Shown here piece after piece: positions 1-16,007 of a stretch of 16,246 nucleotides of DNA. The position numbers were made by a program, and so were the translations under genes. How positions within the stretch are numbered: position 1 is the first letter of the stretch; each line of letters begins with the position of its first letter. Below the pieces are notes generated by a model. That model worked only from the letters and a program-made list of their open reading frames with translations, ran no database searches and was not told where the DNA came from. Origin of the DNA: a virus. Taxonomy: Duplodnaviria > Heunggongvirae > Uroviricota > Caudoviricetes. The stretch lies in IMG/VR virus record IMGVR_UViG_2698536348_000016; one strand, written 5' to 3'.

Positions 1-80
1 GGGGAAAAACGAGTATTTTTAGTCATCCTGTTTACCTCTTTCTCAGGAAGTTTAGTCTCCAGGATTCCCGGGGCGGTTCA
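1..80 (-). mobile_element. IS3-family insertion sequence end (IS629/IS1203-like): terminal repeat and first codons of orfA
   Basis: Minus strand from 80 to 1 reads TGAACCGCCCCGGGAATCCTGGAGACTAAACTTCCTGAGAAAGAGGTAAACAGG, then ATG ACT AAA AAT ACT CGT TTT TCC (MTKNTRFS...) running off the window. A TG-initiated terminal repeat followed by RBS and orfA start is the IS3-family layout, and the N-terminus matches my recollection of IS629 OrfA. The pdeR frame breaks exactly at 80/81. Only 80 nt are visible, so the family call is tentative. Confidence 0.5.
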
Positions 81-622
81 TTGCCGCTTCGAAAAAATAC
101 ACGGTTATTGCGCCTGGATGCCGCAGCTTCACGACGGCTCATAAACAGTTTAAACACGCTTTGCCCAATGACGTCGTGTTCTTTCAACCCTGTGTAATCT
201 TCACATAACCGATTGAAGCGTTGGATATTCCCCCGGCTGTCGAGAATCACTATTGCGGAATGTGCTTCAGAAACTACCTGCTCAGCAAAGGAAAGCCCGT
301 GTGATAAATCACGAGCAACCGCCGGTGTGTCATGCCATGCAGACGCGTTGCCAGCCCATTCCCGTTTATTGATTTTTCGTCCTACCAGATGCACAGAAAG
401 ATCGCTTTCATCGACGGTCAGACTCATCATCAGGCTGGAGGTGATGACCGTCATTTCCCTGATGCGAGCAGCCTGTTCGGCAGATAACTGCAATGTACGA
501 TCAGGTTCTGTGGTTTCGGTGGTAGAAAAGCGCAAAACATCGCTGCTTTCCGTCAACCGCCAGTATGGATTGTGCGATCCGAGAAAGTTGTACAACGTTG
601 TGGACTCCCTAACGGTTTTCAT
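81..622 (-). pseudogene. pdeR: pdeR (yciR/gmr) 5' fragment, c-di-GMP phosphodiesterase N-terminal PAS region, interrupted by the IS
   Basis: ORF 32..622 starts MKTVRESTTLYNFLGSHNPYW... with GGAGG RBS 9 nt upstream of the ATG at 622. The expected protein is about 660 aa (PAS-GGDEF-EAL), but the frame runs into IS sequence after about codon 181 (..RVFFRSGN) and stops at 32. Confidence 0.6.
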
Positions 623-821
623 GATGCATATCCTCCGGTTAACTGCGGAGTCCGCGGTTAAATAAAAGGAACAACATGACTTACATGAAATTAACGGCGG
701 CTAAACGCATTGTTTTTTTTATATATTTATTTGTAATCCAGTTTTGGAAAAACGCCAGTTTTCAAACGAAAGTCAGTTAAAAAATCTGCCTGGATATAAC
801 GAAGGTAGAGCGGGGAAATAA

Positions 822-848
822 ACGGCCCATCCATGAGGAATGGGCCGT
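822..848 (-). terminator. Intrinsic terminator downstream of rnb
   Basis: Hairpin ACGGCCCAT / ATGGGCCGT (9-bp arms) directly after the rnb stop; on the minus strand it is followed by a T-rich stretch (TTTATTT). Confidence 0.55.
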
Positions 849-857
849 GAAAGGAGA

Positions 858-2792
858 TTACGCGACCGGGCGCGCAATAATGCTGCGGGTTTCCATGCGG
901 ACTTCGGCAATAGTGACGTCAATAACGTCAGTCACTTTGTAAACCGTTTCACCTTTAATTTGTACAGTGCCGTTTTCCTGGCTGCAAACCAGTTCATCGC
1001 GCATAGCGTGTAAGAAAGGTGCCGGAATAAAGGCGATAGCGCCGTTATCAACCAAACGAACACGCATGCCGCCACGGCTGATATCGACAATTTCCGCTGC
1101 GAAACGGGTGTCGGTCCCGGCTTTGTCTTTCAGGAAGCGTGCGTATAACCAGTCACCAACATCACGTTCTGCCATCCGGTTGAGACGGCGACGCTCGGCC
1201 ATTTGGACAGTGATTTCATCCTGTGGGCGCGTCGCAGTTTCGCCTTTGATAACCGCTTTCAGCAGACGGTGGTTGATCATGTCGCCATATTTACGGATCG
1301 GCGAAGTCCAGGTGGCGTATGCTTCCAGACCGAGGCCAAAGTGAGGACCGGGTTCAGTGCTAATTTCAGCAAATGACTGGAAGCGACGAATGCGGCTGTC
1401 GAGGAAACCAGTTGGTTGCGCGTCCAGTTCACGACGCAGTTTGCAGAAACCGTCCAGCGTGAGCACTTCTTCGGCATCGACATGCAGACCGTGCGTTTTC
1501 AGCAACGCTGCCAGCGCGTCGGCATTCGCCGGATCAAAGCCCATATGCACGTTATAGATGCCAAAACCGAGCTTATCGCGCAGTACGCGGGCCGCACAAA
1601 TGTTAGCGGCAATCATCGCTTCTTCGACGATACGGTTGGCAATGCGACGAGGCTCGGCGACGATATCCAGCACTTCACCTTTTTCACCGAGAATAAAGCG
1701 GTAATCCGGGCGATCTTTAAACACCAGTGCGTGGTTATGACGCCACTCGCCGCGGCGTTGGCAAATTTGCGCTAGCAAACGGACTTGTTCGGCAATTGCT
1801 TCACTTTCAGGCTGCCAGTCACCGGTATTTTCCAGCCAGTCAGAAACCTGGTCATACACCAGCTTTGCTTTGGATTCGATGGTGGCGGCAAAGAATTCGA
1901 TATTATCTTCAATGGTGCCATCAGCGGAGAGCGTCATGCGGCATACCAGTACCGGGCGGACTTCATTGGCGCGCAGTGAGCAGAGATCGTCAGAAAGCTC
2001 GCGAGGCAGCATAGGGATGTTGAAGCCAGGCAGATAGTTGGTGAATGCGCGAATTTTCGCGGCTTTGTCCAGCTTGCTGCCTTCAGCAATCCACGCGGTT
2101 GGATCGGCAATCGCCACAATCAGCTGAAGTTTGTCATCCGGCAACGCCTTAGCGAAAAGGGCGTCATCCATATCTTCTGTGCTGGCACTGTCGATGGTGA
2201 CAAAATCCAGCGCGGTCAGATCTTCACGAACCAGACCTTCATCGAGCATTTCGGTAGCGACGCCGTCTGGTGCTTCTTTTTCCAGATTATGGCGCGCAAG
2301 GGTAACCCACCACGGTACAAAGTGGTCGTCACCAAAAGTGATGTATTGTGTCAGTTCAGCATAGAAAGAACGATCGCCTTTCAGCGGATGACGGCGCATT
2401 TCGGCAACCGCCCAGTCGCCTTCTTTAAACTCGTGGTTCAGGCCACGGGCTGCGCGGCAAGGAATGGCGTCTTTTAAGAGTGGATGATCAGGAACGATGG
2501 CCAGACGGTCATTTTTGCCCTGAACTTTACCCACGAAACGAGTCAGGAACGGTTCAACCAGTTCTTCTGGCTCTGCGGATTCACGTTCTTTTTCACTGTG
2601 GATCACCGCGATAATTCGGTCGCCATGCATGACTTTTTTCATCTGCGGCGGCGGAATGAAATAACTTTTTTGCGCGTCGACTTCCAGGAAGCCAAAGCCT
2701 TTTTCTGTGGCTTTTACCACCCCTTCAGCGCGTGGCGTCTGGGAATGCAGTTGCTGTTTAAGCTGCGCTAGCAGCGGGTTGTCCTGAAACAT
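858..2792 (-). CDS. rnb: Exoribonuclease II (RNase II)
   Basis: 644-aa [41 protein letters not shown]..., matching RNase II as I recall it (RNB catalytic domain, C-terminal S1 domain); length and neighbours fit. Confidence 0.96.
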
Positions 2793-2859
2793 AATTGTCT
2801 ATTTTGGTGGCCATTAGAGCGGCTGACAGTTTTACGCGAATCTGTCTGACGCGGCAAGG

Positions 2860-3987
2860 TTAATATGTCTCACCCAACGCGATTTTTAAGCGATTTATCC
2901 AGCCACACAGCCCGCTCCATACCAGCAGATTAATAATCTGCGTTGATGATTTTTCGTGTTCGAGTAAAGGGCTGAACTGGGCGGCGCTAAAGCGATCGGG
3001 TGCTCGGGTCAGCCATTGTATCGCCTGAACGGTAGCGTGCTCAACAGAATGACGGTCAGCCCATTGGTTAATTTCATTTTCGCCCTTGCGCAGAAGGGGG
3101 CTGATTTTTTTATATTCATTTGATGAATCCATACAGGCGGCAAAACAAGCAGGACTGCCATTTATCCGCGCGCATAACAACGCCGCAAGCTTATTATCCG
3201 GCTGTGTATTAACCCGTGTACTGTTTAACAACCTTTCGAGAAGGGAAAGTGAAATAGGGTGGAGAGAGAGTGTTTCGGCCAGTTGGCAAAGTTCTGCTGT
3301 TGAACTTTTTGTGTACTCTTCAGGTAGTTTTTCCACCTCATAGCTGCTTCGCCAGCGTATTGATTCATCAGCAAACAGTGACGCGTCGGCGTAGTTTTGT
3401 ATTTCCAGACCGGGTAACCAGCGTACCGGGTGCCCGAGATAAGCCTGAAATGTCGCAATGGTCCGCGCCTGAAAGCCAATAAAACCAATGATTTGGTTAA
3501 TGATCACACAGTCCCCGGCAGTAAGACCGACGTCATTCAGATGCTGGCGCGATCGGTTGTCGATAATAGAAGGCGAGCTAGCCAGTTGGCGGGCATATTG
3601 CGTGATTTGTGCCAACCTATGATTGCTTTCCCTGGAGGAATCAGGCCCGGGGAGCGGCGTAAGTCGCGCCGAATAGTAGTTACATAACCGCTGGACGCCG
3701 CAAACCTGAGCAACCGTCAGGGCCGTAGACAAGCGTTCATAAGCGGTGAAGGTCTGTGAACGGGTCACGGTAAGCTGGTCAGGGAACAATTCCACTGCAA
3801 GAACGCGCGCAGGGACCAGCCATGAAAGGAAGGGAGCCAGCGTTTCTTCATCAAGGAGCACGTCGAGCAGAAAGGGATCGCTGACCTTTGCGGCTTCCGG
3901 GACCAGAGGCAGAACGTCATACTCCGCAGTACTGGATTGCGTTTCATGATACCAGTGGCTTTTGCCGGTGATGTGGCGTTGTTCCAT
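2860..3987 (-). CDS. yciW: YciW (CMD-like putative oxidoreductase)
   Basis: ORF track gives 401 aa from 4065, but AAGGAG lies 5 nt upstream of the internal ATG at 3987 ([15 protein letters not shown]...), giving 375 aa; synteny between rnb and fabI. Confidence 0.85.
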
Positions 3988-4092
3988 GGGCGCTCCTTGG
4001 TCGTAAAGGAAATCGTTATCCTGACGCAAGGCGGGAAGGGGAGAAAGACGGATCGGCGATAACAAATATCAGAAAGGTATAACAGAGATAAC

Positions 4093-4111
4093 GGGCGGCA
4101 GAACGCCGCCC
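4093..4111 (-). terminator. Hairpin downstream of fabI (probable terminator)
   Basis: GGGCGGC agaac GCCGCCC perfect 7-bp stem 20 nt after the fabI stop; the U-tract on the minus strand is imperfect (GTTATCTCTGTTAT). Confidence 0.4.
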
Positions 4112-4131
4112 AATATTTACCAACAGAATGA

Positions 4132-4920
4132 TTATTTCAATTCGAGTTCGTTCATTGCAGCGATGCTGAAACCGCCGTCAACGTGGACCACTTCACCGGA
4201 GATACCGGCAGAGAGATCGGAGCACAGGAATGCCGCGGAGTTACCCACATCTTCAATAGTAACGGTACGGCGAATCGGGGTAACGGCTTCGCAATGAGCC
4301 AGCATTTTGCGGAAGTCTTTGATACCGGAGGCCGCCAGAGTACGGATCGGACCAGCAGAGATGGCGTTAACACGCACACCTTCCGGACCCATCGCGTTCG
4401 CCATATAGCGCACGTTCGCTTCCAGAGACGCTTTTGCCAGACCCATAACGTTGTAGTTCGGGATAGCGCGCTCAGCGCCAAGGTAGGAAAGGGTCAGCAG
4501 GGCAGAACCCGGATTCAGCATGGAGCGGCAAGCTTTTGCCATTGCAACGAAGCTGTAGGAGCTGATGTCGTGGGCAATTTTGAAGCCTTCACGGGTAACG
4601 GCGTTAACATAGTCACCATCCAGCTGATCGCCAGGTGCAAAACCAATAGAGTGTACGAAACCGTCAAATTTCGGCCAAACTTTCCCCAGTTCAGCGAACA
4701 TAGTGTCGATGCTGGCATCTTCTGCAACATCGCACTGCAGAACGATGTCAGAACCCAATTGAGCGGCAAATTCTTCTACGCGGCCTTTCAGTTTGTCGTT
4801 CTGGTAGGTGAATGCCAGTTCAGCTCCTTCGCGGTGCATCGCCTGAGCGATACCGTAGGCGATGGATAGTTTGCTGGCAACACCGGTTACCAGAATGCGC
4901 TTACCGGAAAGAAAACCCAT
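4132..4920 (-). CDS. fabI: Enoyl-ACP reductase (NADH) FabI
   Basis: 262-aa [43 protein letters not shown]..., SDR-family signature and length of FabI. Confidence 0.96.
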
Positions 4921-5084
4921 AGCTTTAATCCTTATTGTTGATGCTTGTTGTGCCTGAAAATCAGGCGATTCGTCGTTTTAGTAAACAGTACGAACAGATA
5001 AACGGTTATTATAATCAACCTGGCTGTGAGTAGCTATAGTTGCCAGGTCCGACCGGAGCAGGCTGCGGCAGGGTGGGCGCTTTT

Positions 5085-5124
5085 CCCCTTACCCTAACCC
5101 TCTCCCCAGAGGGGCGAGGGGACC
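5085..5124. repeat. GC-rich imperfect palindromic intergenic repeat (Box C/REP-like), copy A
   Basis: CCCCTTACCCTAACCCTCTCCCCAGAGGGGCGAGGGGACC; shares ACCCT(A/C)ACCCT and GGGCGAGGGG blocks in inverted orientation with copy B at 5271..5306. Confidence 0.4.
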
Positions 5125-5270
5125 ATATTGTGCAAATATTGTTACCCCAGCAACAAACAGGCTCATACAGCCCCTAACCCTTTTATGGCGATGGCTGGGA
5201 TGGTTCAGACCTTGCCGAATATTCTCCAGCACTGTCTCCATGTTTTCACCACAACAGCTATTCGGCTCGG

Positions 5271-5306
5271 TCGGCCCCCTCGCCCTTTCAGGGTGAGGGT
5301 GACCGG
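5271..5306. repeat. GC-rich imperfect palindromic intergenic repeat, copy B (inverted relative to A)
   Basis: TCGGCCCCCTCGCCCTTTCAGGGTGAGGGTGACCGG; its reverse complement aligns with copy A; overlaps the ycjD stop. Confidence 0.4.
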
Positions 5307-5638
5307 CGGTTCAGTTCCTGCAGAATAATCTCCAGCACCGCCTCCTCATTACAATCAATCTCGTTATGCCAGAAACGCAGCACGGTCCAGCTCTGCGACT
5401 CAAGCCAGCTAGTGCGCCTGGTATCATAGGCAACTGCCAAATCATGCTGCCCACCATCCAGCTCAACGACTACGCGCGCCGAGCAGCAAGCAAAATCGAG
5501 AATGTAGCTCCCCACCGGATGTTGACGGCGAAATTTGAAATCACCAAAACGTCGGCTGCGAAGATATCGCCAGAGCTTTCGTTCCTGCAAAGTGAGATTG
5601 CGTCTTAAATCACGCGCATTTGATTTTATTTTATCCAT
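5288..5638 (-). CDS. ycjD: YcjD, DUF559 endonuclease-fold protein
   Basis: ORF 5288..5641 begins at GTG; the ATG at 5638 gives MDKIKSNARDLRRNLTLQERKLWRYLRSRRFGDFKFRRQHPVG..., 116 aa; position between fabI and sapF. Confidence 0.8.
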   Translation of the reverse strand: MDKIKSNARDLRRNLTLQERKLWRYLRSRRFGDFKFRRQHPVGSYILDFACCSARVVVELDGGQHDLAVAYDTRRTSWLESQSWTVLRFWHNEIDCNEEAVLEIILQELNRRSPSP

Positions 5639-5640
5639 CA

Positions 5641-5679
5641 CCTCATTCTGACAAGATTTAATCTCTTGTCAGAATGAGG
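5641..5679. repeat. Perfect inverted repeat (16-bp arms, 7-nt spacer) between sapF stop and ycjD start
   Basis: CCTCATTCTGACAAGA tttaatc TCTTGTCAGAATGAGG; no U-tract on either strand, so not a classical intrinsic terminator. Confidence 0.6.
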
Positions 5680-5708
5680 TGGATAATCTGGAAGGAGGAT
5701 TCAGAAAA

Positions 5709-6515
5709 TTAGCGATCTTTACGCCACGCATCCGCTGTCAATGCTTCGCCAAAGTGCCCGGCAATCAGCCGTTTGGTGAGTTCATGCAGCGGCGATGCCA
5801 GCACATCCGCGGTGCTGCCTCGTTCGACAACCTCACCCTGATGCATCACCAGCACCTGGTCGCTAATGTGCTTCATCATTCCGATATGCTGGGTAACATA
5901 AATATACGAAATGCCCTGTTTTTCCTGTAACTCCAGCATCAGATTAATCAACTGCGAACGCATCGACATATCCAGTGAAGCGAGGGCTTCATCGGCAATA
6001 ATGACTTTTGGGCGCAATATCAGCGCGCGCGCCAGACCCAGACGCTGTTTTTGTCCGGGTGCCAACATATGCGGATAGTAACTGACGTGATCCGGTAGCA
6101 GCCCAACCATACGCATCGTTTCAATAATCTGTTTGCGACGCTGTTCCGGTTCCAGGTCGGTGTTCAGGCGCAGTGGAAAATCCAGAATTTGCGAGATACG
6201 TTGACGGGGATTCAACGAGGTCGAAGGATCCTGAAAAATCATGCGAATACGCTGACTGCGGAAGGAATAATCGCCAAAATGCAGTGGATGATCGTCAATC
6301 AATAACTCGCCGCTGGTAGGCTCTATCATTCCCGCCAGCATTTTTGCCAGCGTGGATTTACCCGAACCATTCTCGCCAATAATCGCCAGTGTCTGGCCTT
6401 CACGTAGCGTAAAGCTCAAGGGTTTTACCGCTTCTACGGTCTGACGACGAAACCAGCCGGTCCGGTAGCGGAACGTTTTACTTAAATTACGCACTTCAAG
6501 CAGCGTTTCGATCAT
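5709..6515 (-). CDS. sapF: Peptide ABC transporter ATP-binding protein SapF
   Basis: 268-aa ORF MIETLLEVRNLSKTF... with Walker A GENGSGKST and ABC signature; follows sapD. Confidence 0.95.
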   Translation of the reverse strand: MIETLLEVRNLSKTFRYRTGWFRRQTVEAVKPLSFTLREGQTLAIIGENGSGKSTLAKMLAGMIEPTSGELLIDDHPLHFGDYSFRSQRIRMIFQDPSTSLNPRQRISQILDFPLRLNTDLEPEQRRKQIIETMRMVGLLPDHVSYYPHMLAPGQKQRLGLARALILRPKVIIADEALASLDMSMRSQLINLMLELQEKQGISYIYVTQHIGMMKHISDQVLVMHQGEVVERGSTADVLASPLHELTKRLIAGHFGEALTADAWRKDR

Positions 6516-6516
6516 C

Positions 6517-7509
6517 TCACTCTTTCTCCATGTTCAGCGGGAAATGACAGGCATAGAGATGATTTTTCGCCCCCGTCAAACGTGGCGTCACAATGCATTC
6601 TCGTTGTGCATACGGGCAACGTGGCCCCAGACGACAACCAATCGGTAACTGTTCCAGCAGTGGGATAGCGCCGGGCAGCGTATTGAGGCGACTTTTATGC
6701 GGCATCGCGCTGCCGAAGTCTGGTATCGCGCGGATCAGCGCCTGGGTATAAGGATGATGTGGCATCGTCACCAACTCCTTACTCGGCGCGGTTTCCACTG
6801 TTTGACCGCAGTAAAGCACGTTAATTTTATCCGCCCATTGGCTAAGCATTTGTAAGTCATGGCTGATAAGCAAAATAGTGGTATTGCTGTTTTGGTTGAG
6901 ACGCGTCAGCAGGCGAAAGATTTGCGCCTGGGTTGTTGGCTCCATTGAGTTGGTCGGTTCGTCAGCAATCAGCAGACGCGGTTGATTCGCCAGTGCAATG
7001 GCTATCATCACTTTCTGACATTCACCTTCGGTCAACTCATAGGGAAAACTGCGCATCGCATCTTTGTGATCTTTAATCCCCACGCGGTGCAGCAGTTCAA
7101 TGGCACGGCGTTTGCGCCAGCCAAAACGCTGCCACCAACGGCCTTTATAGGTCCAGGCTGGGATGTTTTGCATCAACTGGCGACCCACACGTTCTGAAGG
7201 GTCAAGACACGACTGCGGTTCCTGGAAAATCATCGACACGTTATGGCCAACCAGTTTGCGCCGTTCGCGTGCGGAGAGACGCAGCAAATCGATATCATCA
7301 AAACGCATACGGTCAGCAGTAACACGCCAGTTATCTTTATTCACCCCACAAATCGCTTTCGCAATCAAACTCTTGCCGGAACCGGATTCACCAACAAGAC
7401 CGCGGATTTCACCTTCGGTTAAGGTCATACTTACCCGGTCGACGGCTTTAACCCACTCATCACCGGTTTTAAATTCAATGGTCAGGTTACGAATATCGAG
7501 TAATGGCAT
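6517..7509 (-). CDS. sapD: Peptide ABC transporter ATP-binding protein SapD
   Basis: 330-aa [29 protein letters not shown]... with Walker A GESGSGKS; start overlaps the sapC stop. Confidence 0.95.
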
Positions 7510-8399
7510 TATTCCACCCCCGCAATAATCGCACGACGAACGCCATCGCCAAGGAGGTTAACCAACAACACGCTAATCATAATTGCCGCACCTGGCAGCA
7601 TGACAGTCCACGGGGCGACATAAATCAGTTCCAGCGCATCACCGAGCATCGCTCCCCATTCAGGCGAGGGGAGTTGTGCGCCGAGATCGAGAAAGCCCAG
7701 CGCGGCGATATCGAGAATTGCCATCGACAGTGCGCGGGTGATCTCGGTGACCAGCCCGGCGGTGATGTTTGGCATCACAGCAAACCAGAGAATATTCAGC
7801 GTTGATGCGCCATCCAGACGGGCGGCGATAACGTACTCTTTTTCCAGTTCGTCATGCACCATGCTGTAAATCGAACGTACCATACGCGGCAGCAATGCCA
7901 GCCAGACAGCAAACATAGCGTGGGACAAACTCGGTCCGGCAAACGCTACAACGATAATTGCCAACAGCAGCGAAGGGATCGCCAGTAAGGTATCCAGAAT
8001 ATGGTTAAGCACCGCTGAGCGGAGGCCGTGTGTCGCCCCGGCGAAGGTGCCCAGTACCAGGCCACAGATCGTCGCGGCAAGCGTCACCACAAATGCGCCA
8101 CCCACGGTTGGCGCAGCTCCGCTCAGTAAACGGCTTAAAACATCGCGTCCGAGGTCGTCAGTCCCCAGGAAGAAAGAAACTTCGCCATAGCGCGACCATG
8201 ACGGCGGCAATAATTGATAACCGAGAAATTGCTGGTCGATGCCGTAAGGCGCAAACCAGCCGCCAAAAATACACAGTACAGCCAGCCCCGCGCAGCCGTA
8301 CAGGCCGACCATCGCAGAGGCGTCACTATAAAATTTGCGCCAGGCGGTACGCAGCGTGCCCGGCGGGCGCTTTTCGCTGTATACGCTATCGTAAGGCAT
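7509..8399 (-). CDS. sapC: Peptide ABC transporter permease SapC
   Basis: 296-aa [38 protein letters not shown]..., multi-TM permease; RBS GAAGG 6 nt upstream of the ATG at 8399. Confidence 0.95.
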
Positions 8400-8533
8400 G
8401 ATTACCTTCTTTAAACTTATTTGCTTTGATTCGTTTTGCTTTAGTTTTTTCTTTCATTTCAATCACATGCCATATTTAGGTGCTTTATTCTTGTTTGTTG
8501 CTATTCGTTTCTTGTAGTTCCAATTTAAGAAAA
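8400..8533. other. Host/prophage junction region (candidate attL and integrase arm-site region)
   Basis: Composition switches abruptly to AT-rich non-coding DNA immediately upstream of the sapC ATG; short direct repeats (TTGCTTT x2, TTCTTGT x2). No sapB reading frame is present. The exact core is not determinable without an empty-site sequence. Confidence 0.45.
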
Positions 8534-8535
8534 AT

Positions 8536-8574
8536 GTGTACACTAAAGTGTATACGAAACACGAGGGTGTACAC
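8536..8574 (+). promoter_or_regulatory. Three copies of the 8-bp palindrome GTGTA(C/T)AC overlapping the integrase RBS/start (candidate operator)
   Basis: GTGTACAC at 8536..8543, GTGTATAC at 8548..8555, GTGTACAC at 8567..8574; the last overlaps the GAGGG RBS. Confidence 0.5.
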
Positions 8575-8575
8575 A

Positions 8576-9763
8576 TTGCTCACCGATACAAAACTAAGAA
8601 AGTCTCTTGGCAAAAAACGAGACAAAATCGAAGTGCTTTCTGATGCACAAGGGCTGAATGTTCGGTTATCAACTTCCGGCAGTATAACATTTTTTTACCG
8701 CTACCGATGGAATGGCAAGGCTGCACAACTGGCGATCGGCAGTTATCCGTCCATTTCATTGGCTCAGGCCAGGGAGCGTCGCCAGCAGTTTAGAGACTGG
8801 CTCACTGAGGGACTGGATCCCCGTCGTCAGGTTATGCTGGAAAAGCAGAAAAAGTCTCAGGCTATGACCGTTAAAGAAGCATTTGATTACTGGGAGCAAC
8901 ATTATTGTATTCCCGAAGGTCTGAAAAAACTGAAGGTCAACAGGCGCGATTTTAATAACCACATTGCGCCCGTACTAGGAAATGTCATTGTCGAACAGAC
9001 AACAAAAGCTCACTGGCTGAGCCTGTTTGATTCGATGGGACGCCGTGTGGTCACTGGGCAGATGCTGGGCTTAATGCAACGAACTTTCAGGTTTTGTTCA
9101 AACAGGGGGGTGATAAGCATTAATCCGCTTGAAAGCCTGAGGCGTTCAGATGTGGGCATGGCTGCGGCAACCAGAGACAGGAAACTGAGCGATGAAGAGA
9201 TCAAGATTGTCTGGTCGGCTTTGTCTGATATGGGGGAAAGGCAGAAGCTGGTTGTTAAATTTCTTCTTATGACGGGGTGCAGAACCGCAGAGATTAGAAC
9301 AGCAAGATGGGAATGGTTCGATTTTAACGAGAATACATGGACTGTTCCTGCAAGCGAATATAAAACGGGTAAGACCGTCAGAAGAGCGTTGCCTCCGGCG
9401 ATCGTGAAACTGATGCAGGAAGTGAAGAAAACCTCCGTTTCTCAGCATGTTCTTACGCGGGCAAGATATAACGGCCCTGAAGATGATAAGCCACCGCAAC
9501 AACCTCATATCGCTTTGTTTTCTGCTCAGATCATCGCTAAAACGGGGATGAAAACATGGTCCCTTCATGACTTGAGAAGAACGGTGGCAACACGATTATC
9601 CGAGTTAGGTGCGCCACCACATGTGGTTGAAAAGTTATTAGGGCATCATATGTCCGGCGTAATGGCTCGTTATAATCTGCATGATTATCTCGAAGATCAA
9701 AGGCATTGGTTGCAGGTGTGGCAGAATTATCTTGAAGGGTTAGTTGATGCGCCATTAACCTGA
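8576..9763 (+). CDS. int: Tyrosine recombinase/integrase, P4/CP4-57-like with N-terminal arm-binding (DUF4102-type) domain
   Basis: ORF 8480..9763. N-terminal LTDTKLRKSLGKKRDK...GLNVRL...FFYRYRWNGK...SLAQARERR fits the arm-binding domain; catalytic motifs TGCRTAEIR, HDLRRT, LGHH...ARY. Start chosen at TTG 8576 (GAGGG RBS 7 nt upstream, N-terminus then aligns with LTD-type integrase starts); in-frame ATG at 8534 is the alternative. Confidence 0.88.
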   Translation: MLTDTKLRKSLGKKRDKIEVLSDAQGLNVRLSTSGSITFFYRYRWNGKAAQLAIGSYPSISLAQARERRQQFRDWLTEGLDPRRQVMLEKQKKSQAMTVKEAFDYWEQHYCIPEGLKKLKVNRRDFNNHIAPVLGNVIVEQTTKAHWLSLFDSMGRRVVTGQMLGLMQRTFRFCSNRGVISINPLESLRRSDVGMAAATRDRKLSDEEIKIVWSALSDMGERQKLVVKFLLMTGCRTAEIRTARWEWFDFNENTWTVPASEYKTGKTVRRALPPAIVKLMQEVKKTSVSQHVLTRARYNGPEDDKPPQQPHIALFSAQIIAKTGMKTWSLHDLRRTVATRLSELGAPPHVVEKLLGHHMSGVMARYNLHDYLEDQRHWLQVWQNYLEGLVDAPLT

Positions 9764-9969
9764 GCATTATTTCTTTCCCACTCCAGAATATCAGAAAGCC
9801 ACCAACGATTGGGGTTTCCCTTTATTGTTGGTTTAGGAAATGGTTTGCTGAGGGACTTTGGCTTTCTGTCTGGAGTACTCCAGAAATACAGAGTGCTTCG
9901 TGAAATTTTATATCGTTCCAGAATATCTTTGGTTAACAAGATTTCATTTGTTTTTGTAATGTCGTTCAT
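9727..9969 (-). CDS. AlpA/excisionase-like small DNA-binding protein
   Basis: 80-aa ORF with GGAG RBS 7 nt upstream; ...ILLTKDILERYKISRSTLYFW...FPKPTIKGNPNRWWLSDILEWERNN resembles AlpA/Xis-type winged-helix proteins; 3' end overlaps the integrase 3' end by 37 nt convergently. Confidence 0.65.
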   Translation of the reverse strand: MNDITKTNEILLTKDILERYKISRSTLYFWSTPDRKPKSLSKPFPKPTIKGNPNRWWLSDILEWERNNAQVNGASTNPSR

Positions 9970-10000
9970 TTTATTCTCCAGTTGAATTGTTTAATCATCG

Positions 10001-10021
10001 AAAAACCGCCCGAAGGCGGTT
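10001..10021 (-). terminator. Intrinsic terminator (minus strand) between the 83-aa ORF and the xis-like gene
   Basis: AACCGCC cgaa GGCGGTT hairpin; on the minus strand it is followed by TTTTT. Confidence 0.55.
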
Positions 10022-10022
10022 G

Positions 10023-10274
10023 TCAGTTGATTGATGTGCGGCGCATTTTGCGAAGGCTGGCAATATGCTTTTCCTTCTCAATTTCTGCTTTAATCATGTG
10101 TAGTTCGTTGTGATCGATTCGCTCAAATTCTGCATTAAATGCGCTAATTGAAGCGGCTCTGGTTCTCCCATCCAGCCTTCGGAAGATTACCTGCGTCAGA
10201 GTGATTTTGCAGACTTCAACCGGATAGTTGTTGGCATCGACGAAAGACTGCCCGCGCTGGATTAGAACGAACAC
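10023..10274 (-). CDS. Hypothetical prophage protein (83 aa, GTG start)
   Basis: ORF from track with AAGGA about 9 nt upstream of the GTG; basic C-terminus; lies in the slot between exo and xis where lambdoid phages carry small early genes. No recognisable motif. Confidence 0.4.
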   Translation of the reverse strand: MFVLIQRGQSFVDANNYPVEVCKITLTQVIFRRLDGRTRAASISAFNAEFERIDHNELHMIKAEIEKEKHIASLRKMRRTSIN

Positions 10275-10322
10275 CGGTAGTATTCCTTAATTGTCATATC
10301 ATTTGCACCTCGTTGCTACTGG

Positions 10323-11003
10323 CTATCGCCATTGCTCCCCAAATACAAAACCAATTTCAGCCAGTGCCTCGTCCATTTTTTCGATGAACTCCGGTACCAT
10401 TTCGTCAAAAACCTCCATGTATTTTTCATCCCGTTCGACCACGACATAATGCAGGCCTTCACGCTTCATACGCGGGTCATAGTTGGCAAAGTACCAGGCA
10501 TCTTTTCGCGTCACCCACATGCTGTACTGCACCTGGGCCATGTAAGCCGACTTTATGGCCTCGAAACCACCGAGCCGGAATTTCATGAAATCCCGGGAGG
10601 TAAACGGGCATTTCAGTTCAAGGCCGTTGCCGTCACTGCATAAACCATCGGGAGAGCAGGCGGTGCGCATACTTTCGTCGCGATAGATGATCGGGGATTC
10701 AGTAACATTCACGCCGGAAGTGAACTCAAAGAGGGCTCTGGCGTCGTTCTCGTACTGTTTTCCCCAGGCCAGCGCTTTAGCGTTAACTTCCGGAGCCACA
10801 CCGGTGCAAACCTCAGCCAGCAGGGTGTGGAAGTAGGACATTTTCATGTCAGGCCATTTCTTTCCTGAGCGGGGTTTTGCTATCACGTTGTGAACTTCTG
10901 AAGCGGTGATGACGCCGAGCCGTAATTTGTGCCACGCATCATCCCCCTGTTCGACAGCTCTCACGTCGATCCCTGTACGTTGCAGGATAATGTCCGGTGT
11001 CAT
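10323..11003 (-). CDS. exo: Lambda-type exonuclease (Red alpha, Exo)
   Basis: 226-aa [53 protein letters not shown]..., near-identical to lambda Exo as I recall it; start overlaps the bet stop. Confidence 0.96.
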
Positions 11004-11785
11004 GCTGCTACCTTCTGCTCTGTGACTTTCTGTTTCAGGAATCCAAGAACCTTCACAGCTTCAGCCTGTGTTAGTTCTGAAGATGTGTAAATGTTGCGGC
11101 GAAAAATCTGGGAACAGAGCGGCAACAGGTCGTCATCCCACGTTTTTTCCATGGAAGTAAGAAGGGCGTTAATTTCCGACATGGTTTCTTCGTTAACCGG
11201 GGTGATGTCGCGTTCCGGCTGACGTTCTGTAGTATATGCAGTATTTTCGACAATACGCTCGGCTTCATCCTTGTCATAGATGCCAGCAAATCCGAAGGCC
11301 AGGCGAGCACACTGAATCATGGCTTTGTGCCGTAACATCCGTTTGGGATGCGACTGCCACGGTCCGGTGATTTCTCTGCCTTCGCGGGTTTTGAATGGTG
11401 CGCGGCGACATTCATCCATCCACTCGGTAACGCAGATCGGGTGATTGCGATCTTTGCGGTAAATCCGGCATGTACAGGACTCATTGTCCTGCTCAAAGTC
11501 CATGCCATCAAACTGCTGGTTTTCATTGATAATGCGGGACCAGCCATCAACGCCAACCACCGGAACGATGCCGTTCTGCTTGTCAGGGAAGGCGTAAATT
11601 TCTTTCGTCCAGGGATTAAGGCCGTACTGGTTGGCGACGATCAACAATGCGATAAATTGCGCATCGCTGGCATCACCTTTAAATGCCGTCTGGCGAAGAG
11701 TGGTGATTAGTTCCTGTGGGTCGACAGAATCCATGCCGACACGTTCAGCCAGCTTCCCTGCCAGCGTTGCGAGTGCTGTACTCAT
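11000..11785 (-). CDS. bet: Lambda-type single-strand annealing protein (Red beta, Bet)
   Basis: 261-aa [69 protein letters not shown]..., matches lambda Bet. Confidence 0.96.
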
Positions 11786-11790
11786 CCGTT

Positions 11791-12087
11791 TTATACCTCT
11801 GAATCAATATTAATTTGGTGACGGGCGATGGTTTCAGCCATGTAGCGGATGTGTTCTGCCATGCGTTCCTGAAAATCGACATCGTCATCAAATGCACGGG
11901 AAATAGCTTTTTTGCTGGCCCCGTGACGTTGCAGATTATCGATGCATAGCGATTCAAACAGGTGTTGGGGCAGACCTTTTTCCAGGTCGTCTGCCAGCTC
12001 AGCTTCAGTTTCTTCACGGGCAATTTGCTGGTAGTGTCGTGCCCATGACTGCTCTTCAATGCGATCGGGGATAAGCCAGGCATTCAT
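11791..12087 (-). CDS. gam: Gam (RecBCD inhibitor), short GamS-length form
   Basis: 98-aa [29 protein letters not shown]...[20 protein letters not shown], matches the C-terminal 98 aa of lambda Gam; ATGA overlap with the upstream ORF. Confidence 0.9.
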
Positions 12088-12494
12088 GATTTATCACCTT
12101 CGAAATTTTCAAGCCTGTTGGCAATCATGATGGCGATATCAGGGATTGCTGGCGCTGTGGCTATACATGCGGGGTTGGCGCACAAACCATAGACGGCGGC
12201 AATCACGAGCTGTCTTTTCCAGTCGAGAGTTACTGGCTCAGAATTGGCGTCATCGCCGGACGTATCACTGCCTGGCTCGTTCTGAACAACGGTTTCGCCC
12301 TCCTGAGCGGCATCAACAGAGTTTTCCTGAATGATCTTCTCCTCAGTTTGTGCTGAGTCTTCTCCATCAGCGGCGTCATTTTCTCCAAAAGTTTCAGCGT
12401 AAGTTTCATCTCCCATTACTGGACCACAGTCAGGGCAATGGCCGCCACCGTTCTGACTGCATGTGGTGCAAACCTTTTCCACTTCCTGTTGCAT
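12084..12494 (-). CDS. Hypothetical zinc-ribbon / acidic protein in the kil position upstream of gam
   Basis: ORF 12084..12551 begins at GTG; first ATG at 12494 gives [25 protein letters not shown] (CxxC...CxxC), then a strongly acidic segment, then a hydrophobic/Cys-containing C-terminus. Translationally coupled to gam. Confidence 0.55.
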
Positions 12495-12623
12495 TACTGG
12501 CCCTGGAAGTGGGAGCGAGTCTGCGCCGCGCTGCGGGAGCTGAACAAGCACCGGGATATTGTTCGACAGATTGTCGATTCATCCGGTCGTATTGTGTCGG
12601 AAAAGTGATTGCCGGAGGCGCTT

Positions 12624-13019
12624 ATGGCGAAACCTTTTACACACGAACAGCGGGAAGAACTGAAGGCACGAATTATCGGATTGGTACGCAAAAATGAACG
12701 CATGACGATATCGCAACTGGAGAGAGCGACGGGAGCAGGCTGGCATTCAGTCAGACGTTGCCTTGTGGATGTACTGGCTTGTGGCGATTTATACATGTCC
12801 GGTAAATACGGTGTTTTTGCATCAGAACAGGTGTATCGCGTATGGCGTAAGACACCGGAGAAAACAACTGACCAGACATTGATTCGAAAGTTACCAGACG
12901 GAGAAATTCGCCGCTACGATAGACGCCTGAACATAATCTGTCGCGAGTGCCGGAATAGTGAAGTTATGCAGCGCGTGCTGGCTTTCTATCAGGGGAATTT
13001 TCAGGAGGCGGTACTGTGA
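12624..13019 (+). CDS. Hypothetical protein (131 aa), first gene of the opposite-strand cassette
   Basis: ATG at 12624 with GGAGG RBS 5 nt upstream; MAKPFTHEQREELKARIIGLVRKNERMTISQLERATGAGWHSVRRC...; possible helix-turn-helix-like segment; family unknown. Confidence 0.6.
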   Translation: MAKPFTHEQREELKARIIGLVRKNERMTISQLERATGAGWHSVRRCLVDVLACGDLYMSGKYGVFASEQVYRVWRKTPEKTTDQTLIRKLPDGEIRRYDRRLNIICRECRNSEVMQRVLAFYQGNFQEAVL

Positions 13020-13075
13020 GTAAATTAGCTATCAGGCTTCAATTGTCGCTGGCATTCGCATCAAAGGAGAATGAG

Positions 13076-13660
13076 ATGACCACTTTTACAAAAGAGCAGT
13101 TAATCAGTCATGTTAGTGAAAATGTAAAGGCGATGAAATTTGCAGTAAAACAGACAGCATTCAAAAATTCTCTCGAGGCAATTGAGTTGGATTTAGCACT
13201 GGCCCTTGTTGCTCAGGCTTCGCTGGAAGCAGAGCCCGTGCTTTATATGAATCGATTTACCGGAAAGACATTCTCACTGGAAGAGCAACCCGGTGCTGAT
13301 AAGGAACCGGAAATATACGTGCCGCTATATGCTGCCCCGCCAGACAGCGCCGCCATGCTTCAGGCTGGAAACTTTCGGGAAAAGAAGGGTTCGTCAACCA
13401 ATAATTTTCGGGAAATCTCGGAAACGTCAACCAACCATCCGGTAACTCTGGATGGTTGGATAAGCTGTAGTGAGCGAATGCCGGATGACGGTCAGCACGT
13501 AATTATTTTATGTGATGGCGCATTCGTTCTTTATGCGCAATATCGAGACGGTGAGTTTTTTGATGTAGTCCGTGATGGTGATGAATTTTTCGAAACACAG
13601 AGCCGCAATGTAACCGACTGGATGCCGCTACCAGAACCGCCGCAGGAGGTGCGCCAATGA
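13076..13660 (+). CDS. Hypothetical protein with C-terminal DUF551-like domain
   Basis: ATG at 13076 with AAGGAG RBS 7 nt upstream; C-terminus ...DGWISCSERMPDDGQHVIIL...VTDWMPLPEPP resembles the phage DUF551 motif; internal tandem repeat (NFRE...STN x2) at 13369..13434. Confidence 0.7.
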   Translation: MTTFTKEQLISHVSENVKAMKFAVKQTAFKNSLEAIELDLALALVAQASLEAEPVLYMNRFTGKTFSLEEQPGADKEPEIYVPLYAAPPDSAAMLQAGNFREKKGSSTNNFREISETSTNHPVTLDGWISCSERMPDDGQHVIILCDGAFVLYAQYRDGEFFDVVRDGDEFFETQSRNVTDWMPLPEPPQEVRQ

Positions 13661-13740
13661 ACTGGCCTGAAGCATTTGCAATTACAGGCGTTGCTATGGC
13701 TATCACCTTTTTAGTATATGTTATTTGTCGGTGGGGGTAA
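13657..13740 (+). CDS. Small hydrophobic peptide (27 aa), translationally coupled to the upstream gene
   Basis: ATGA overlap with the stop of the preceding gene; MNWPEAFAITGVAMAITFLVYVICRWG, single predicted TM segment; below the ORF-track length cutoff. Confidence 0.35.
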   Translation: MNWPEAFAITGVAMAITFLVYVICRWG

Positions 13741-13775
13741 AAACGTTCGCCGGGATTAACACCAAAGGAGGGAAT

Positions 13776-13880
13776 ATGTCGGATGATATATCACTGGCAA
13801 TGGAAGGTGCGCTGGCTGTTGTTGCTGTTGTGGGCGTTTACTGCCTGGTTGTGTTTTTGATGGATCGACTAGGGAACTGA
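13776..13880 (+). CDS. Small hydrophobic peptide (34 aa)
   Basis: AAGGAGGG RBS 4 to 5 nt upstream of ATG; MSDDISLAMEGALAVVAVVGVYCLVVFLMDRLGN, single predicted TM segment. Confidence 0.45.
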   Translation: MSDDISLAMEGALAVVAVVGVYCLVVFLMDRLGN

Positions 13881-13890
13881 ATTCATTACG

Positions 13891-13908
13891 ATATGGGAAT
13901 TCCCATAT
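13891..13908. repeat. Perfect 18-bp palindrome ATATGGGAATTCCCATAT
   Basis: Self-complementary 18-mer 11 nt downstream of the peptide stop and just upstream of the putative hok promoter. Confidence 0.6.
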
Positions 13909-13922
13909 CGGGTAAAAACGGT

Positions 13923-13950
13923 TTGCGGTAAAGCGAGAGTTAAGTAGAAT
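13923..13950 (+). promoter_or_regulatory. Putative hok mRNA promoter
   Basis: TTGCGG (-35), 16-nt spacer, TAGAAT (-10); predicted 5' end near 13957 (GGGTGCTTGAGG), which is complementary to the 3' segment 14331..14343. Confidence 0.35.
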
Positions 13951-13994
13951 TGCTGCGGGTGCTTGAGGCTGTCTGCCTCGGGCATGCCACCGTA

Positions 13995-14090
13995 AGGCAG
14001 ACAGAGAAAAGCCCCAGTTAACATTACGCGTCCTGCAAGACGCCTAACATTAATCTGAGGCCAATTTCATGCTAGACACATGTAGGTTAG
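13995..14090 (-). ncRNA. Expected Sok-like antisense RNA region (approximate)
   Basis: Inferred from hok/sok architecture: antisense to the leader and upstream in-frame start; minus strand has TTGCCT, 17 nt, TAACCT promoter-like hexamers near 14113..14085 and hairpin GCGTC ctgcaa GACGC (plus 14027..14042). Boundaries not resolved. Confidence 0.3.
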
Positions 14091-14125
14091 CCTCTTACGC
14101 GCCGAAAGGCAAGGAGAAGCAGGCT

Positions 14126-14281
14126 ATGAAGCAGCAAAAGGCGATGTTAGTCGCCCTGATCGTCATCTGTATTACCGTCGTAGTGACGGCACTGGTAACG
14201 AGGAAAGACCTCTGCGAGGTACGAATCCGAACCGGTCAGACGGAGGTTGCTGTCTTCACAGCTTACGAACCTGAGGAGTAA
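14126..14281 (+). CDS. hok: Hok/Gef-family type I toxin (51 aa)
   Basis: MKQQKAMLVALIVICITVVVTALVTRKDLCEVRIRTGQTEVAVFTAYEPEE, close to HokD/HokC (Gef) as I recall them; AAGGAG RBS 9 nt upstream; ORF track 14069..14281 includes an in-frame upstream ATG. Confidence 0.9.
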   Translation: MKQQKAMLVALIVICITVVVTALVTRKDLCEVRIRTGQTEVAVFTAYEPEE

Positions 14282-14349
14282 GAGACCAGGCGAGGGAGAA
14301 ATCCCTCGCCACCTCTGATGTGTCAGGCATCCTCAACGCACCCGCACTT

Positions 14350-14371
14350 AACCCGCTTCGGCGGGTTTTTT
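14350..14371 (+). terminator. Intrinsic terminator of the hok transcript
   Basis: AACCCGC ttcg GCGGGTT followed by a T6 run; the same 20-mer recurs at 15191..15210. Confidence 0.7.
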
Positions 14372-14490
14372 CACTTACTGTGGTTGTGAATACGATTGGT
14401 ATTAGGCTATGCTAACAACATTAGCCTGACTAATTTTGTATTGACTTGATTTTTGTTAAAGAACAGGACGGAGAAGTAAGGGTACACCCA

Positions 14491-14670
14491 ATGAGCTACG
14501 CACTAAAAAAACACCCGCGATTGACTATTCCCCCTCGCGATAAAAGCGTTGTGGCAGCTCCGCGCCCGGCTATCGATGAAAATTGCACTCATCGTGAGCA
14601 GGTGAAAAATGCTTTCGATTTCGGTTTTTCTCGTTACGAGAAGGCAATGGAAGAACTTTCAAAAGTGTAA
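14491..14670 (+). CDS. Small protein (59 aa), candidate antitoxin partner of the Doc-family toxin
   Basis: ATG at 14491 (ORF track starts at TTG 14446); MSYALKKHPRLTIPPRDKSVVAAPRPAIDENCTHREQVKNAFDFGFSRYEKAMEELSKV; stop 18 nt before the toxin ATG. Not Phd-like by eye, so the role is inferred from position only. Confidence 0.4.
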   Translation: MSYALKKHPRLTIPPRDKSVVAAPRPAIDENCTHREQVKNAFDFGFSRYEKAMEELSKV

Positions 14671-14688
14671 TGATGGGTATTGTGCTCT

Positions 14689-15174
14689 ATGGCTGAGATT
14701 GTTGAAGGAGTGCACTACCTTTCGTTTGATGATCTTACCGAAATTAATCGCCTTTTAATTGAGCTTCAAACACCAGATGAACCTGTTAGTGTGCTGAGTG
14801 TTGATAATTTAAGTTCTTCTCAGTCTCGTCCCAGCATGGTTCGATGGTATGAACAGACTAATGACATGTTTGTACTGGCATCAGTATTGATTGAAAGTCT
14901 GATTCAGAATCATCCATTTGCTAATGCAAACAAACGAACAGCTATGATGGCTGGTTATGTCTTCTTGTTGTTGAATGGCTATGAGTTAACAGCACCAGGC
15001 GATGAAATCGTGGAAATGGCAGAGGGACTGGCCTGCAAAACCTATACTCGAGAAGATCTCGAGAACTGGTTGTGTTATTGGTCTCGTGCGTATGACAGCC
15101 GGGAATTATGTAAAACAGGCGCAACTATTGTTTTGTATGAAACTATCAAGCTTAAAATAGAACAGCAAAACTAA
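14689..15174 (+). CDS. Doc-family (Fic-fold) toxin
   Basis: Contains HPFANANKRTAMMAGYVFLLLNGYEL, matching the Doc motif H-x-F-x-(D/N)-(A/G)-N-K-R and following helix (P1 Doc has HIFNDANKRTALNSALLFLRRNG as I recall). ATG 14689 chosen; TTG 14680 is the alternative. Confidence 0.8.
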   Translation: MAEIVEGVHYLSFDDLTEINRLLIELQTPDEPVSVLSVDNLSSSQSRPSMVRWYEQTNDMFVLASVLIESLIQNHPFANANKRTAMMAGYVFLLLNGYELTAPGDEIVEMAEGLACKTYTREDLENWLCYWSRAYDSRELCKTGATIVLYETIKLKIEQQN

Positions 15175-15188
15175 AGGTGCTTCTAATG

Positions 15189-15210
15189 AAAACCCGCTTC
15201 GGCGGGTTTT
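15189..15210. terminator. Bidirectional intrinsic terminator between convergent doc-like and higA-like genes
   Basis: AAAACCCGC ttcg GCGGGTTTT: perfect hairpin with an A-run upstream and T-run downstream. Confidence 0.7.
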
Positions 15211-15224
15211 GTTGTATTGGAGTA

Positions 15225-15905: not shown

Positions 15906-15926
15906 TTTTTGTTCCGTTATTAATGT

Positions 15927-15941
15927 ATAACACATAGTGTT
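15927..15941 (-). promoter_or_regulatory. Candidate operator palindrome upstream of the higB-like gene
   Basis: TAACAC ata GTGTTA perfect 6-bp inverted repeat about 22 to 36 nt upstream of the toxin ATG. Confidence 0.4.
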
Positions 15942-15972
15942 ACATTGCGTAGGGATCTGCAATGCCATCAGT

Positions 15973-16002
15973 TTGACAACGTCGCGTGTTCGGGGCTATA
16001 TT
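15973..16002 (+). promoter_or_regulatory. Near-consensus sigma70-type promoter
   Basis: TTGACA (15973..15978), 18-nt spacer, TATATT (15997..16002); divergent from the higB-like promoter region. Confidence 0.5.
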
Positions 16003-16007
16003 CCTCA

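What the first reader, a model, noticed from the sequence alone, without database searches (positions are those of the whole stretch)
1..622. IS3-family insertion truncates the c-di-GMP phosphodiesterase gene pdeR
The pdeR frame leaves chromosomal sequence at 80/81 and enters an IS end (TGAACCGCCCC... followed by an orfA start MTKNTRFS). PdeR is a trigger phosphodiesterase in c-di-GMP control of curli and biofilm regulation, so loss of its GGDEF/EAL domains would be expected to alter biofilm phenotypes. IS629-type elements are typical of certain pathogenic E. coli/Shigella lineages, which hints at strain background.
Basis: partly seen in the sequence, partly recalled or inferred. Interest (0 to 1): 0.45.

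Follow-up and report, generated by a model that had tools for sequence, protein, structure and literature searches.

The report
IS629-type element truncates biofilm gene pdeR
A common jumping-gene element (IS629/IS1203 type) sits inside the E. coli biofilm-control gene pdeR and cuts it off after 181 of 661 codons; this is an ordinary, strain-private gene knockout, and the rest of the element cannot be seen because the window is a whole draft-assembly contig that ends inside it.

Summary
On the minus strand, window 622→79 equals pdeR nt 1-544 with no mismatch, then departs completely from native pdeR. Window 80→1 is the left end of an IS629/IS1203-type IS3-family element: TGAACCGCCCC…, with the orfA ATG at 26-24 (MTKNTRFS). 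The resulting ORF (622→32) has 181 native and 15 IS-encoded residues. It ends in the middle of the PAS domain and lacks GGDEF and EAL, so it is almost certainly a null allele.

The window is the entire 16,246-bp contig CYDI01000065.1 of E. coli draft assembly GCA_001285245.1. Its other end is an IS600 end, so both ends look like assembly breaks at repeats. The full IS, the 3-bp target duplication (predicted CAA) and the distal part of pdeR therefore cannot be checked here. A simple insertion is inferred, not shown.

This junction is in none of 5,426 complete E. coli genomes, and the truncated protein is on record from this one contig only. Independent IS1203 insertions in pdeR exist at other sites: O111:H8 strains at nt 146-148, and O157:H7 strain 146N4 at nt 923-925. 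Nonsense and frameshift alleles are also on record.

The expected phenotype is high CsgD and curli expression that no longer responds to c-di-GMP; this comes from literature on K-12. Overall this is an ordinary pseudogenisation of low interest.

The parts
1..80 (-). Left end of an IS629/IS1203-type IS3-family insertion sequence. It holds the terminal inverted repeat starting TGAACCGCCCC at window 80, a 54-nt leader, and the first 8 codons plus 2 nt of orfA (ATG at 26-24, MTKNTRFS). The element continues beyond the contig end.
   Evidence: 80/80 identical to L005 2001-2080, a full 1310-bp copy with a programmed-frameshift transposase. 78/80 identical to IS1203 in L001 and L003. orfA translation.
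81..622 (-). The 5' part of pdeR (yciR/gmr): nt 1-542, codons 1-181. The T of codon 181 is supplied by the IS terminal TG, which coincides with native nt 543-544.
   Evidence: No mismatch to intact pdeR of O26:H11 11368 over nt 1-544 and complete divergence afterwards. 100% matches over 79-700 to pdeR in many O26, O103 and O111 genomes.
32..622 (-). Chimeric truncated ORF of 196 aa: 181 PdeR residues plus 15 IS-encoded residues (EPPRESWRLNFLRKR), with the TAA stop at 34-32, 5 nt before the orfA ATG. It retains only the N-terminal region and roughly the first half of the PAS domain.
   Evidence: Pfam on the truncated ORF gives PAS 114-161 and PAS_9 123-182 only. Full-length PdeR gives PAS 114-225, GGDEF 237-390 and EAL 412-644. 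Deposited as CTW93378.1 and seen on one contig only.
623..857 (.). Unaltered pdeR upstream region and the intergenic region up to rnb (858-2792, minus strand). The pdeR promoter side is intact, so transcription would read into the IS in the orfA direction.
   Evidence: 100% identity of 81-8399 to strain 2013C-3342, whose pdeR is intact. Gene order pdeR-rnb-yciW-fabI-ycjD-sapFDC as in reference genomes.

Best explanation
An IS629/IS1203-type IS3-family element (about 1310 bp) transposed into pdeR of an E. coli strain from the O26/O111/O103-related part of the species. It inserted between pdeR nt 542 and 543, with orfA pointing the same way as pdeR.

What is shown: the pdeR reading frame now runs 15 codons into the IS leader and stops. 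The product has 181 of 661 native residues, with half a PAS domain and no GGDEF or EAL domain.

What is inferred from the biology of the IS3 family: copy-out-paste-in transposition would have duplicated 3 bp (predicted CAA, pdeR nt 540-542). The remaining pdeR (nt 540-1986), followed by yciZ, yciT and osmB, should lie on another contig of the same draft assembly, directly after the IS right end. The window stops 80 nt into the IS because the short-read assembler could not cross a multi-copy repeat.

What is inferred from K-12 genetics: the allele is a pdeR null. PdeR no longer holds DgcM and MlrA inactive, so csgD and curli expression should be high and insensitive to c-di-GMP, provided RpoS, MlrA, DgcM and CsgD are intact in this strain.
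For: - Junction and identity of both sides.
- Domain loss.
- The window is the whole contig CYDI01000065.1 (16,246 bp) of GCA_001285245.1.
- The opposite contig end (16140-16246) is an IS600 end, so both ends are repeats, as expected for assembly breaks.
- Full copies of the same IS type are 1310 bp with 3-bp duplications: AAC in L003, AGG in L001, AAC in L005. Rump et al. report 3-4 bp (PMC3271280).
- The nearest complete genome (2013C-3342, 100% identical over 8.3 kb) has an intact pdeR, so the disruption is recent and strain-specific.
- The same kind of event is documented at two other pdeR positions, with both gene halves present.
- The null phenotype comes from PMC5052742.
Against: - The IS body, the right end, the duplication and the distal part of pdeR are not in the window and could not be retrieved. 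A scan of species-representative genomes for the junction found nothing, and no complete E. coli genome carries it.
- No phenotype can be read from sequence. In many attaching-effacing lineages other curli regulators (mlrA, rpoS) are themselves disrupted (literature cited in PMC6029578), which would mask a pdeR null.
Confidence: 0.8

Rival explanations
1. IS-mediated rearrangement rather than a simple insertion. An IS629-type copy abuts pdeR nt 542, but what lies beyond the IS is not distal pdeR. It could be an adjacent deletion (for example IEE-promoted), or an inversion or deletion by recombination between two IS copies. Distal pdeR, and possibly yciZ, yciT and osmB, would then be lost or moved.
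For: The left side of the IS is not available. Related lineages carry many copies of this IS: 7-40 places per genome in O26 and O111 records. That gives ample substrate for IS-IS recombination. IS629 excision and deletion promoted by IEE is described in EHEC (titles and abstracts seen: PMC9943667, PMC9397093).
Against: The two other IS1203 events in pdeR are clean insertions with 3-bp duplications and both gene halves present. Distal pdeR is present in at least 5,421 of 5,426 complete genomes, so loss of this region is very rare.
Confidence: 0.15
2. Assembly artefact: the 80 nt of IS sequence were wrongly joined to an intact pdeR at the contig end, and the gene is whole in the real genome.
For: The junction lies at the extreme end of a draft contig. 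The 2-nt TG overlap between the IS terminus and native pdeR is a tiny microhomology.
Against: The break falls exactly at the canonical IS terminus (TG…), as in genuine insertions. If pdeR were intact and single-copy, the assembler would have extended through it, since pdeR is unique in genomes (median 1 place). A 2-nt overlap cannot seed a de Bruijn mis-join.
Confidence: 0.04
3. Native pdeR continues through window 1-80, with no mobile element.
For: None found.
Against: From pdeR nt 545 on, the window shares nothing with the native sequence, and it is 80/80 identical to an IS end.
Confidence: 0

Closest known systems
IS1203 (an IS629 isoform) insertion in pdeR of O111:H8 STEC (e.g. E2855, RM9322, 05-3004; PGAP marks the gene as a pseudogene)
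   Same: Same gene, same IS group and same orientation (orfA co-directional with pdeR). It is a 1310-bp element with a 3-bp duplication, on a chromosome backbone 99.9% identical to the window.
   Different: It is inserted at pdeR nt 146-148 (TSD AAC), not 542/543. The IS subtype differs (78/80 in the terminal 80 nt; the full copy carrying the window's 80-mer is 96.3% identical to IS1203). Those O111 genes are also annotated with an internal stop, so the IS there sits in a gene that also carries an internal stop, which may have inactivated it beforehand.
IS1203 insertion in pdeR of O157:H7 strain 146N4 (NZ_CP076237.1)
   Same: Same gene, IS group and orientation, and both gene halves are retained.
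   Different: It is inserted at nt 923-925 (TSD AGG), inside the GGDEF domain, in a different phylogenetic lineage (pdeR 98.4% identical).
Natural yciR/pdeR nonsense alleles (UPEC B-11870; EHEC O111:H- 11128)
   Same: These are naturally occurring truncations of PdeR in pathogenic isolates. In B-11870 an effect on CsgD and the rdar morphotype was shown experimentally (PMC5635171).
   Different: They are point mutations that leave the N-terminal region and an intact GGDEF domain, and the B-11870 product up-regulated rdar. Here the cut lies much earlier, inside PAS, and is caused by a mobile element.
Frameshift alleles of pdeR, including slippage at the T6 tract (nt 526-531)
   Same: They truncate PdeR at almost the same place, giving 183-aa, 215-aa and 247-aa products. 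They fall in the same 136-member 90%-identity cluster of N-terminal fragments as the window's product.
   Different: They are frameshifts, not a mobile element. The 183-aa and 215-aa products match modelled T7 and T5 changes in the tract; other members shift frame further upstream. Several are seen on many contigs, whereas the window's product is seen on one.
Prophage insertion in mlrA (yehV) of O157:H7 and non-O157 STEC
   Same: A mobile element disrupts a node of the same RpoS-MlrA-CsgD curli circuit in attaching-effacing E. coli (cited in PMC6029578).
   Different: The expected effect is opposite: loss of the activator MlrA abolishes curli, while loss of the inhibitor PdeR de-represses it. 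The type of element also differs.

Membership tests
IS3 family, IS629/IS1203/IS3411 group | Terminal inverted repeats ending 5'-TG…CA-3' | tested here: met
   The left terminus TGAACCGCCCC is at window 80→70. The right repeat is off the contig. In the full copy that carries the identical 80-mer (L005), the two repeats match at 14 of the first 14 positions and 23 of the first 25.
IS3 family, IS629/IS1203/IS3411 group | >=95% nucleotide identity to a named element (the isoform criterion, recalled from ISfinder practice) | tested here: inconclusive
   Only 80 nt are available. They are 80/80 identical to a 1310-bp copy that PGAP calls 'IS3 family transposase', and 78/80 identical to PGAP-named IS1203. 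That full copy is 1261/1310 (96.3%) identical to IS1203. The group is assigned safely; the subtype name is not.
IS3 family, IS629/IS1203/IS3411 group | orfA and orfB joined by a programmed -1 frameshift to give a DDE transposase | not testable with these tools
   The window holds only orfA codons 1-8 (MTKNTRFS). Full copies with the same end are annotated with a programmed frameshift and the AL1L pseudoknot.
IS3 family, IS629/IS1203/IS3411 group | 3-4 bp target-site duplication flanking the element | not testable with these tools
   The second junction is on another contig. The predicted duplication is CAA. 3-bp duplications were verified in three related copies, and 3-4 bp is reported in PMC3271280.
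PdeR (YciR/Gmr) trigger phosphodiesterase | Orthologous sequence in the conserved position next to rnb | tested here: met
   nt 1-544 are identical to pdeR of O26 11368. The gene order pdeR-rnb-yciW-fabI matches the references.
PdeR (YciR/Gmr) trigger phosphodiesterase | Complete PAS-GGDEF-EAL architecture, needed for c-di-GMP binding and hydrolysis and for the trigger function | tested here: not met
   The window's ORF ends at residue 181, inside PAS, and has no GGDEF or EAL match. It is a truncated allele (pseudogene), not a functional family member.

The most novel reading that the evidence does not exclude
pdeR may be a recurrent loss-of-function target in natural E. coli, especially in IS629-rich attaching-effacing lineages. 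The evidence is three independent IS629-type insertions at different codons (this contig, the O111:H8 clade, O157:H7 146N4), nonsense alleles, and frameshift alleles including T6-tract slippage. Such a pattern would point to selection for CsgD and curli expression that is always on and blind to c-di-GMP, or for rewiring of the switch. A side possibility: because orfA is co-directional and its ATG lies 5 nt after the stop of the truncated ORF, transposase expression might become coupled to the stationary-phase pdeR promoter.
Probability: 0.12. Interest if true: 0.4.

Novelty: new member of a known kind. Interest (0 to 1): 0.15.

Why it matters
The practical value is local. The strain behind GCA_001285245.1 probably lacks the PdeR switch, so its curli and biofilm behaviour on Congo-red plates may differ from that of close O26/O111/O103-type relatives. 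The deposited annotation also hides this: the truncated ORF is named as an ordinary protein, 'modulator of Rnase II stability'. The junction could serve as a lineage marker, in the way IS629 insertion sites are used for typing O157:H7 (PMC3271280). It does not reveal any new mechanism. IS629-type gene inactivation, natural pdeR pseudogenes and the pdeR-null phenotype are all already described.

Tried and rejected
- **Extending leftward.** The exact-protein look-up showed that the window is the complete contig, so no extension was possible.
- **Scanning the species-representative genome collection for the 35-nt junction.** It gave 0 hits. I did not use the second scan for the predicted right junction, because that collection holds one genome per species and evidently does not contain this assembly.
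- **Searching 5,426 complete E. coli genomes for the junction.** None has it. The only full-length hit (H1) turned out to be a different insertion site.
- **Finding the sister contig through a homology search with the PdeR C-terminal part.** I did not run it. Only cluster representatives are returned and the look-up needs the exact sequence, so I judged success at under 10% for a very costly search.
- **Literature search for the assembly or WGS accession.** It found nothing.
- **RNA fold of the pdeR-to-IS read-through transcript (130 nt), looking for sequestration of the orfA ribosome-binding site.** The energy was no different from shuffled sequences (z = -0.12), so nothing is claimed.
- **The idea that pdeR is a general IS hotspot.** Rejected. 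Fewer than 1% of complete genomes show a large disruption in any third of the gene: at most 35, 5 and 4 genomes of 5,426. At least 23 of those with a disruption in the first third are one O111 clade. These counts miss insertions near the ends of each query segment.

Full report
**What is in the window.** The largest ORF in 1-622 lies on the minus strand (622→32, 196 aa) and begins MKTVRESTTLYNFLGSHNPYWRL…. I compared it base by base with the intact 1986-nt pdeR of E. coli O26:H11 11368 (L002 1559-3544, annotated 'cyclic di-GMP phosphodiesterase'). The window is identical for pdeR nt 1-544 and then shares nothing with the native gene. The native protein continues …FFRSGNAYEVELWIPTCKG…, whereas the window reads …FFRSGNEPPRESWRLNFLRKR*.

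The 80 nt beyond the break, read on the minus strand, are TGAACCGCCCCGGGAATCCTGGAGACTAAACTTCCTGAGAAAGAGGTAAACAGGATGACTAAAAATACTCGTTTTTCCCC. The ATG at window 26-24 opens MTKNTRFS. One refinement: the IS terminal TG coincides with native pdeR nt 543-544. The breakpoint is ambiguous by 2 nt, codon 181 (AAT) stays intact, and BLAST matches to intact pdeR start at window 79.

**What the 80 nt are.** The 80-mer has exact copies in very many E. coli records. At least 2,026 records match at >=99% identity, and related ends occur in 3,553 of 5,426 complete genomes, with 5,788 places on plasmids.
- One exact copy (strain 600468, L005) is the left end of a 1310-bp element. It has TG…CA inverted repeats, a 3-bp duplication (AAC) and a transposase annotated with a programmed frameshift and the AL1L pseudoknot.
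- The IS1203 copies of O157:H7 146N4 and O111 E2855 differ from the window at 2 of 80 positions. They are 96.3% identical to the L005 element over 1310 bp.
- Rump et al. describe IS629 subtypes that differ by 4-5%, treat IS1203 as an IS629 isoform, and report 3-4-bp duplications (PMC3271280).

The element is therefore an IS629/IS1203-group member of the IS3 family. The exact subtype cannot be named from 80 nt.

**Why the sequence stops there.** An exact-sequence look-up of the 196-aa product returned a single contig: CYDI01000065.1 of assembly GCA_001285245.1, 16,246 bp, which is the window itself. The deposited protein is CTW93378.1, 'modulator of Rnase II stability [Escherichia coli]'. That is the old Gmr name for YciR, so it was annotated as an ordinary gene. 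The other end of the contig (16140-16246) is an IS600 end. Both ends of the contig therefore lie a short way inside multi-copy IS elements, the usual signature of short-read assembly breaks.

The junction is absent from species-representative genomes and from all 5,426 complete E. coli genomes.

**Consequence for the protein.** Pfam places PAS at 114-225, GGDEF at 237-390 and EAL at 412-644 in full-length PdeR. The truncated ORF keeps only PAS residues up to about 161-182. Nothing that binds or hydrolyses c-di-GMP remains, so I treat the allele as a null.

According to Hengge's review, PdeR directly inhibits DgcM and MlrA until c-di-GMP rises. [quoted passage not shown] That is the expected direction of the phenotype, and it is inferred, not shown. 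It depends on intact rpoS, mlrA, dgcM and csgD, none of which lie in the window. In STEC, mlrA is often interrupted by prophages (cited in PMC6029578).

**Context and relatives.** The backbone 81-8399 carries pdeR', rnb, yciW, fabI, ycjD, sapF, sapD and sapC. It is 100% identical to the CDC human-stool isolates 2013C-3342 and 2015C-4498 and 99.9% identical to many O111:H8 genomes. In 2013C-3342, pdeR is intact. The disruption is therefore recent and private to this strain, and the truncated product is on record from one contig only.

IS1203 has hit pdeR independently elsewhere:
- In O111 strain E2855 it lies at nt 146-148 with TSD AAC. At least 23 O111-type complete genomes show the same two-piece match over an IS1203. 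The E2855 gene is also annotated with an internal stop.
- In O157:H7 146N4 it lies at nt 923-925 with TSD AGG.
- Both are clean 1310-bp insertions in the same orientation as here, which makes a simple insertion the most likely state in this strain too.

Natural nonsense alleles of yciR are published for UPEC B-11870 and O111:H- 11128 (PMC5635171). The 90%-identity cluster that holds the window's product has 136 N-terminal PdeR fragments. Several correspond to T5 or T7 slippage in a T6 tract at pdeR nt 526-531, 11 nt upstream of this IS junction.

Large disruptions of pdeR are nevertheless rare. At most 35, 5 and 4 of 5,426 complete genomes lack a >=80% contiguous match to the first, middle and last third of the gene. 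At least 23 of the genomes with a disrupted first third belong to the O111 clade noted above. I see no good evidence that pdeR is a general IS hotspot.

**Mechanism, with its status.**
- Shown: an IS629-type left end abuts pdeR nt 542-544, with orfA co-directional with pdeR. The frame terminates 15 codons into the IS. The GGDEF and EAL domains and half of the PAS domain are lost from the product.
- Inferred from IS3-family biology and from three related copies: copy-out-paste-in insertion of a 1310-bp element with a 3-bp duplication (predicted CAA), and distal pdeR on another contig.
- Inferred from K-12 genetics: de-repressed csgD and curli expression that is blind to c-di-GMP.
- Rivals: IS-mediated deletion or inversion (about 0.15), an assembly chimera (about 0.04), and uninterrupted native pdeR (refuted).

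**Side test.** Read-through from the pdeR promoter might be prevented from expressing orfA by RNA structure. A fold of the 130-nt junction transcript is no more stable than shuffled sequences (z = -0.12), so nothing is claimed.

**Verdict.** The reservations are that 'insertion' and the phenotype are inferences, and that the IS type alone says little about strain background. This is a new, strain-private allele of a well-known kind of event: IS629-family pseudogenisation in an attaching-effacing-type E. coli background, in a gene already known to carry natural inactivating mutations. Interest is low.

Noticed in passing
window 8400-16139: The left arm of a lambdoid prophage. It carries a tyrosine integrase (8480-9763, +), a DUF4222 gene, exo/YqaJ (10323-11003), bet (11000-11785), a DUF551 protein (13016-13660), a Fic/DOC-family protein (14680-15174, +) and an HTH plus weak RelE-like gene pair (15225-15542 and 15651-15968, both -). 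It is integrated in sapB. Homology to prophage-free relatives stops exactly at 8399, the sapC start codon, so sapA and sapB are separated from sapCDF. The same site is occupied in ML35, 90-3040 and other strains, but not in the nearest relative 2013C-3342.
   Followed up: partly
window 16140-16246: The right end of the contig is the terminal 107 nt of an IS600-type IS3-family element (99.1% identical to annotated IS600 copies), inserted in the prophage. Both contig ends are therefore IS ends.
   Followed up: yes
window 92-97 (pdeR nt 526-531): A T6 homopolymer lies 11 nt upstream of the IS junction. Modelled T5 and T7 variants reproduce exactly the 215-aa and 183-aa truncated PdeR products found on many public contigs. 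The 215-aa forms are seen on 17, 12, 9 and 8 contigs each. These may be real slippage alleles or homopolymer sequencing errors; I did not separate the two.
   Followed up: partly
L003 4400-5711 (O111 strain E2855) and L001 2771-4080 (O157:H7 146N4): Independent IS1203 insertions in pdeR at nt 146-148 and nt 923-925, both with orfA co-directional with pdeR. In at least 23 O111-type complete genomes the match to the window is likewise split in two pieces over an IS1203, as in E2855, whose pdeR is additionally annotated with an internal stop.
   Followed up: yes
window 32-622 (-): The truncated chimeric ORF is deposited as CTW93378.1, 'modulator of Rnase II stability', with no flag that it is a fragment fused to IS sequence. 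This is an annotation error in the source assembly.
   Followed up: yes
window 676-780 (+): A 34-aa ORF between pdeR and rnb is annotated in RefSeq genomes as a hypothetical protein (WP_000221855.1). It is unchanged here.
   Followed up: no
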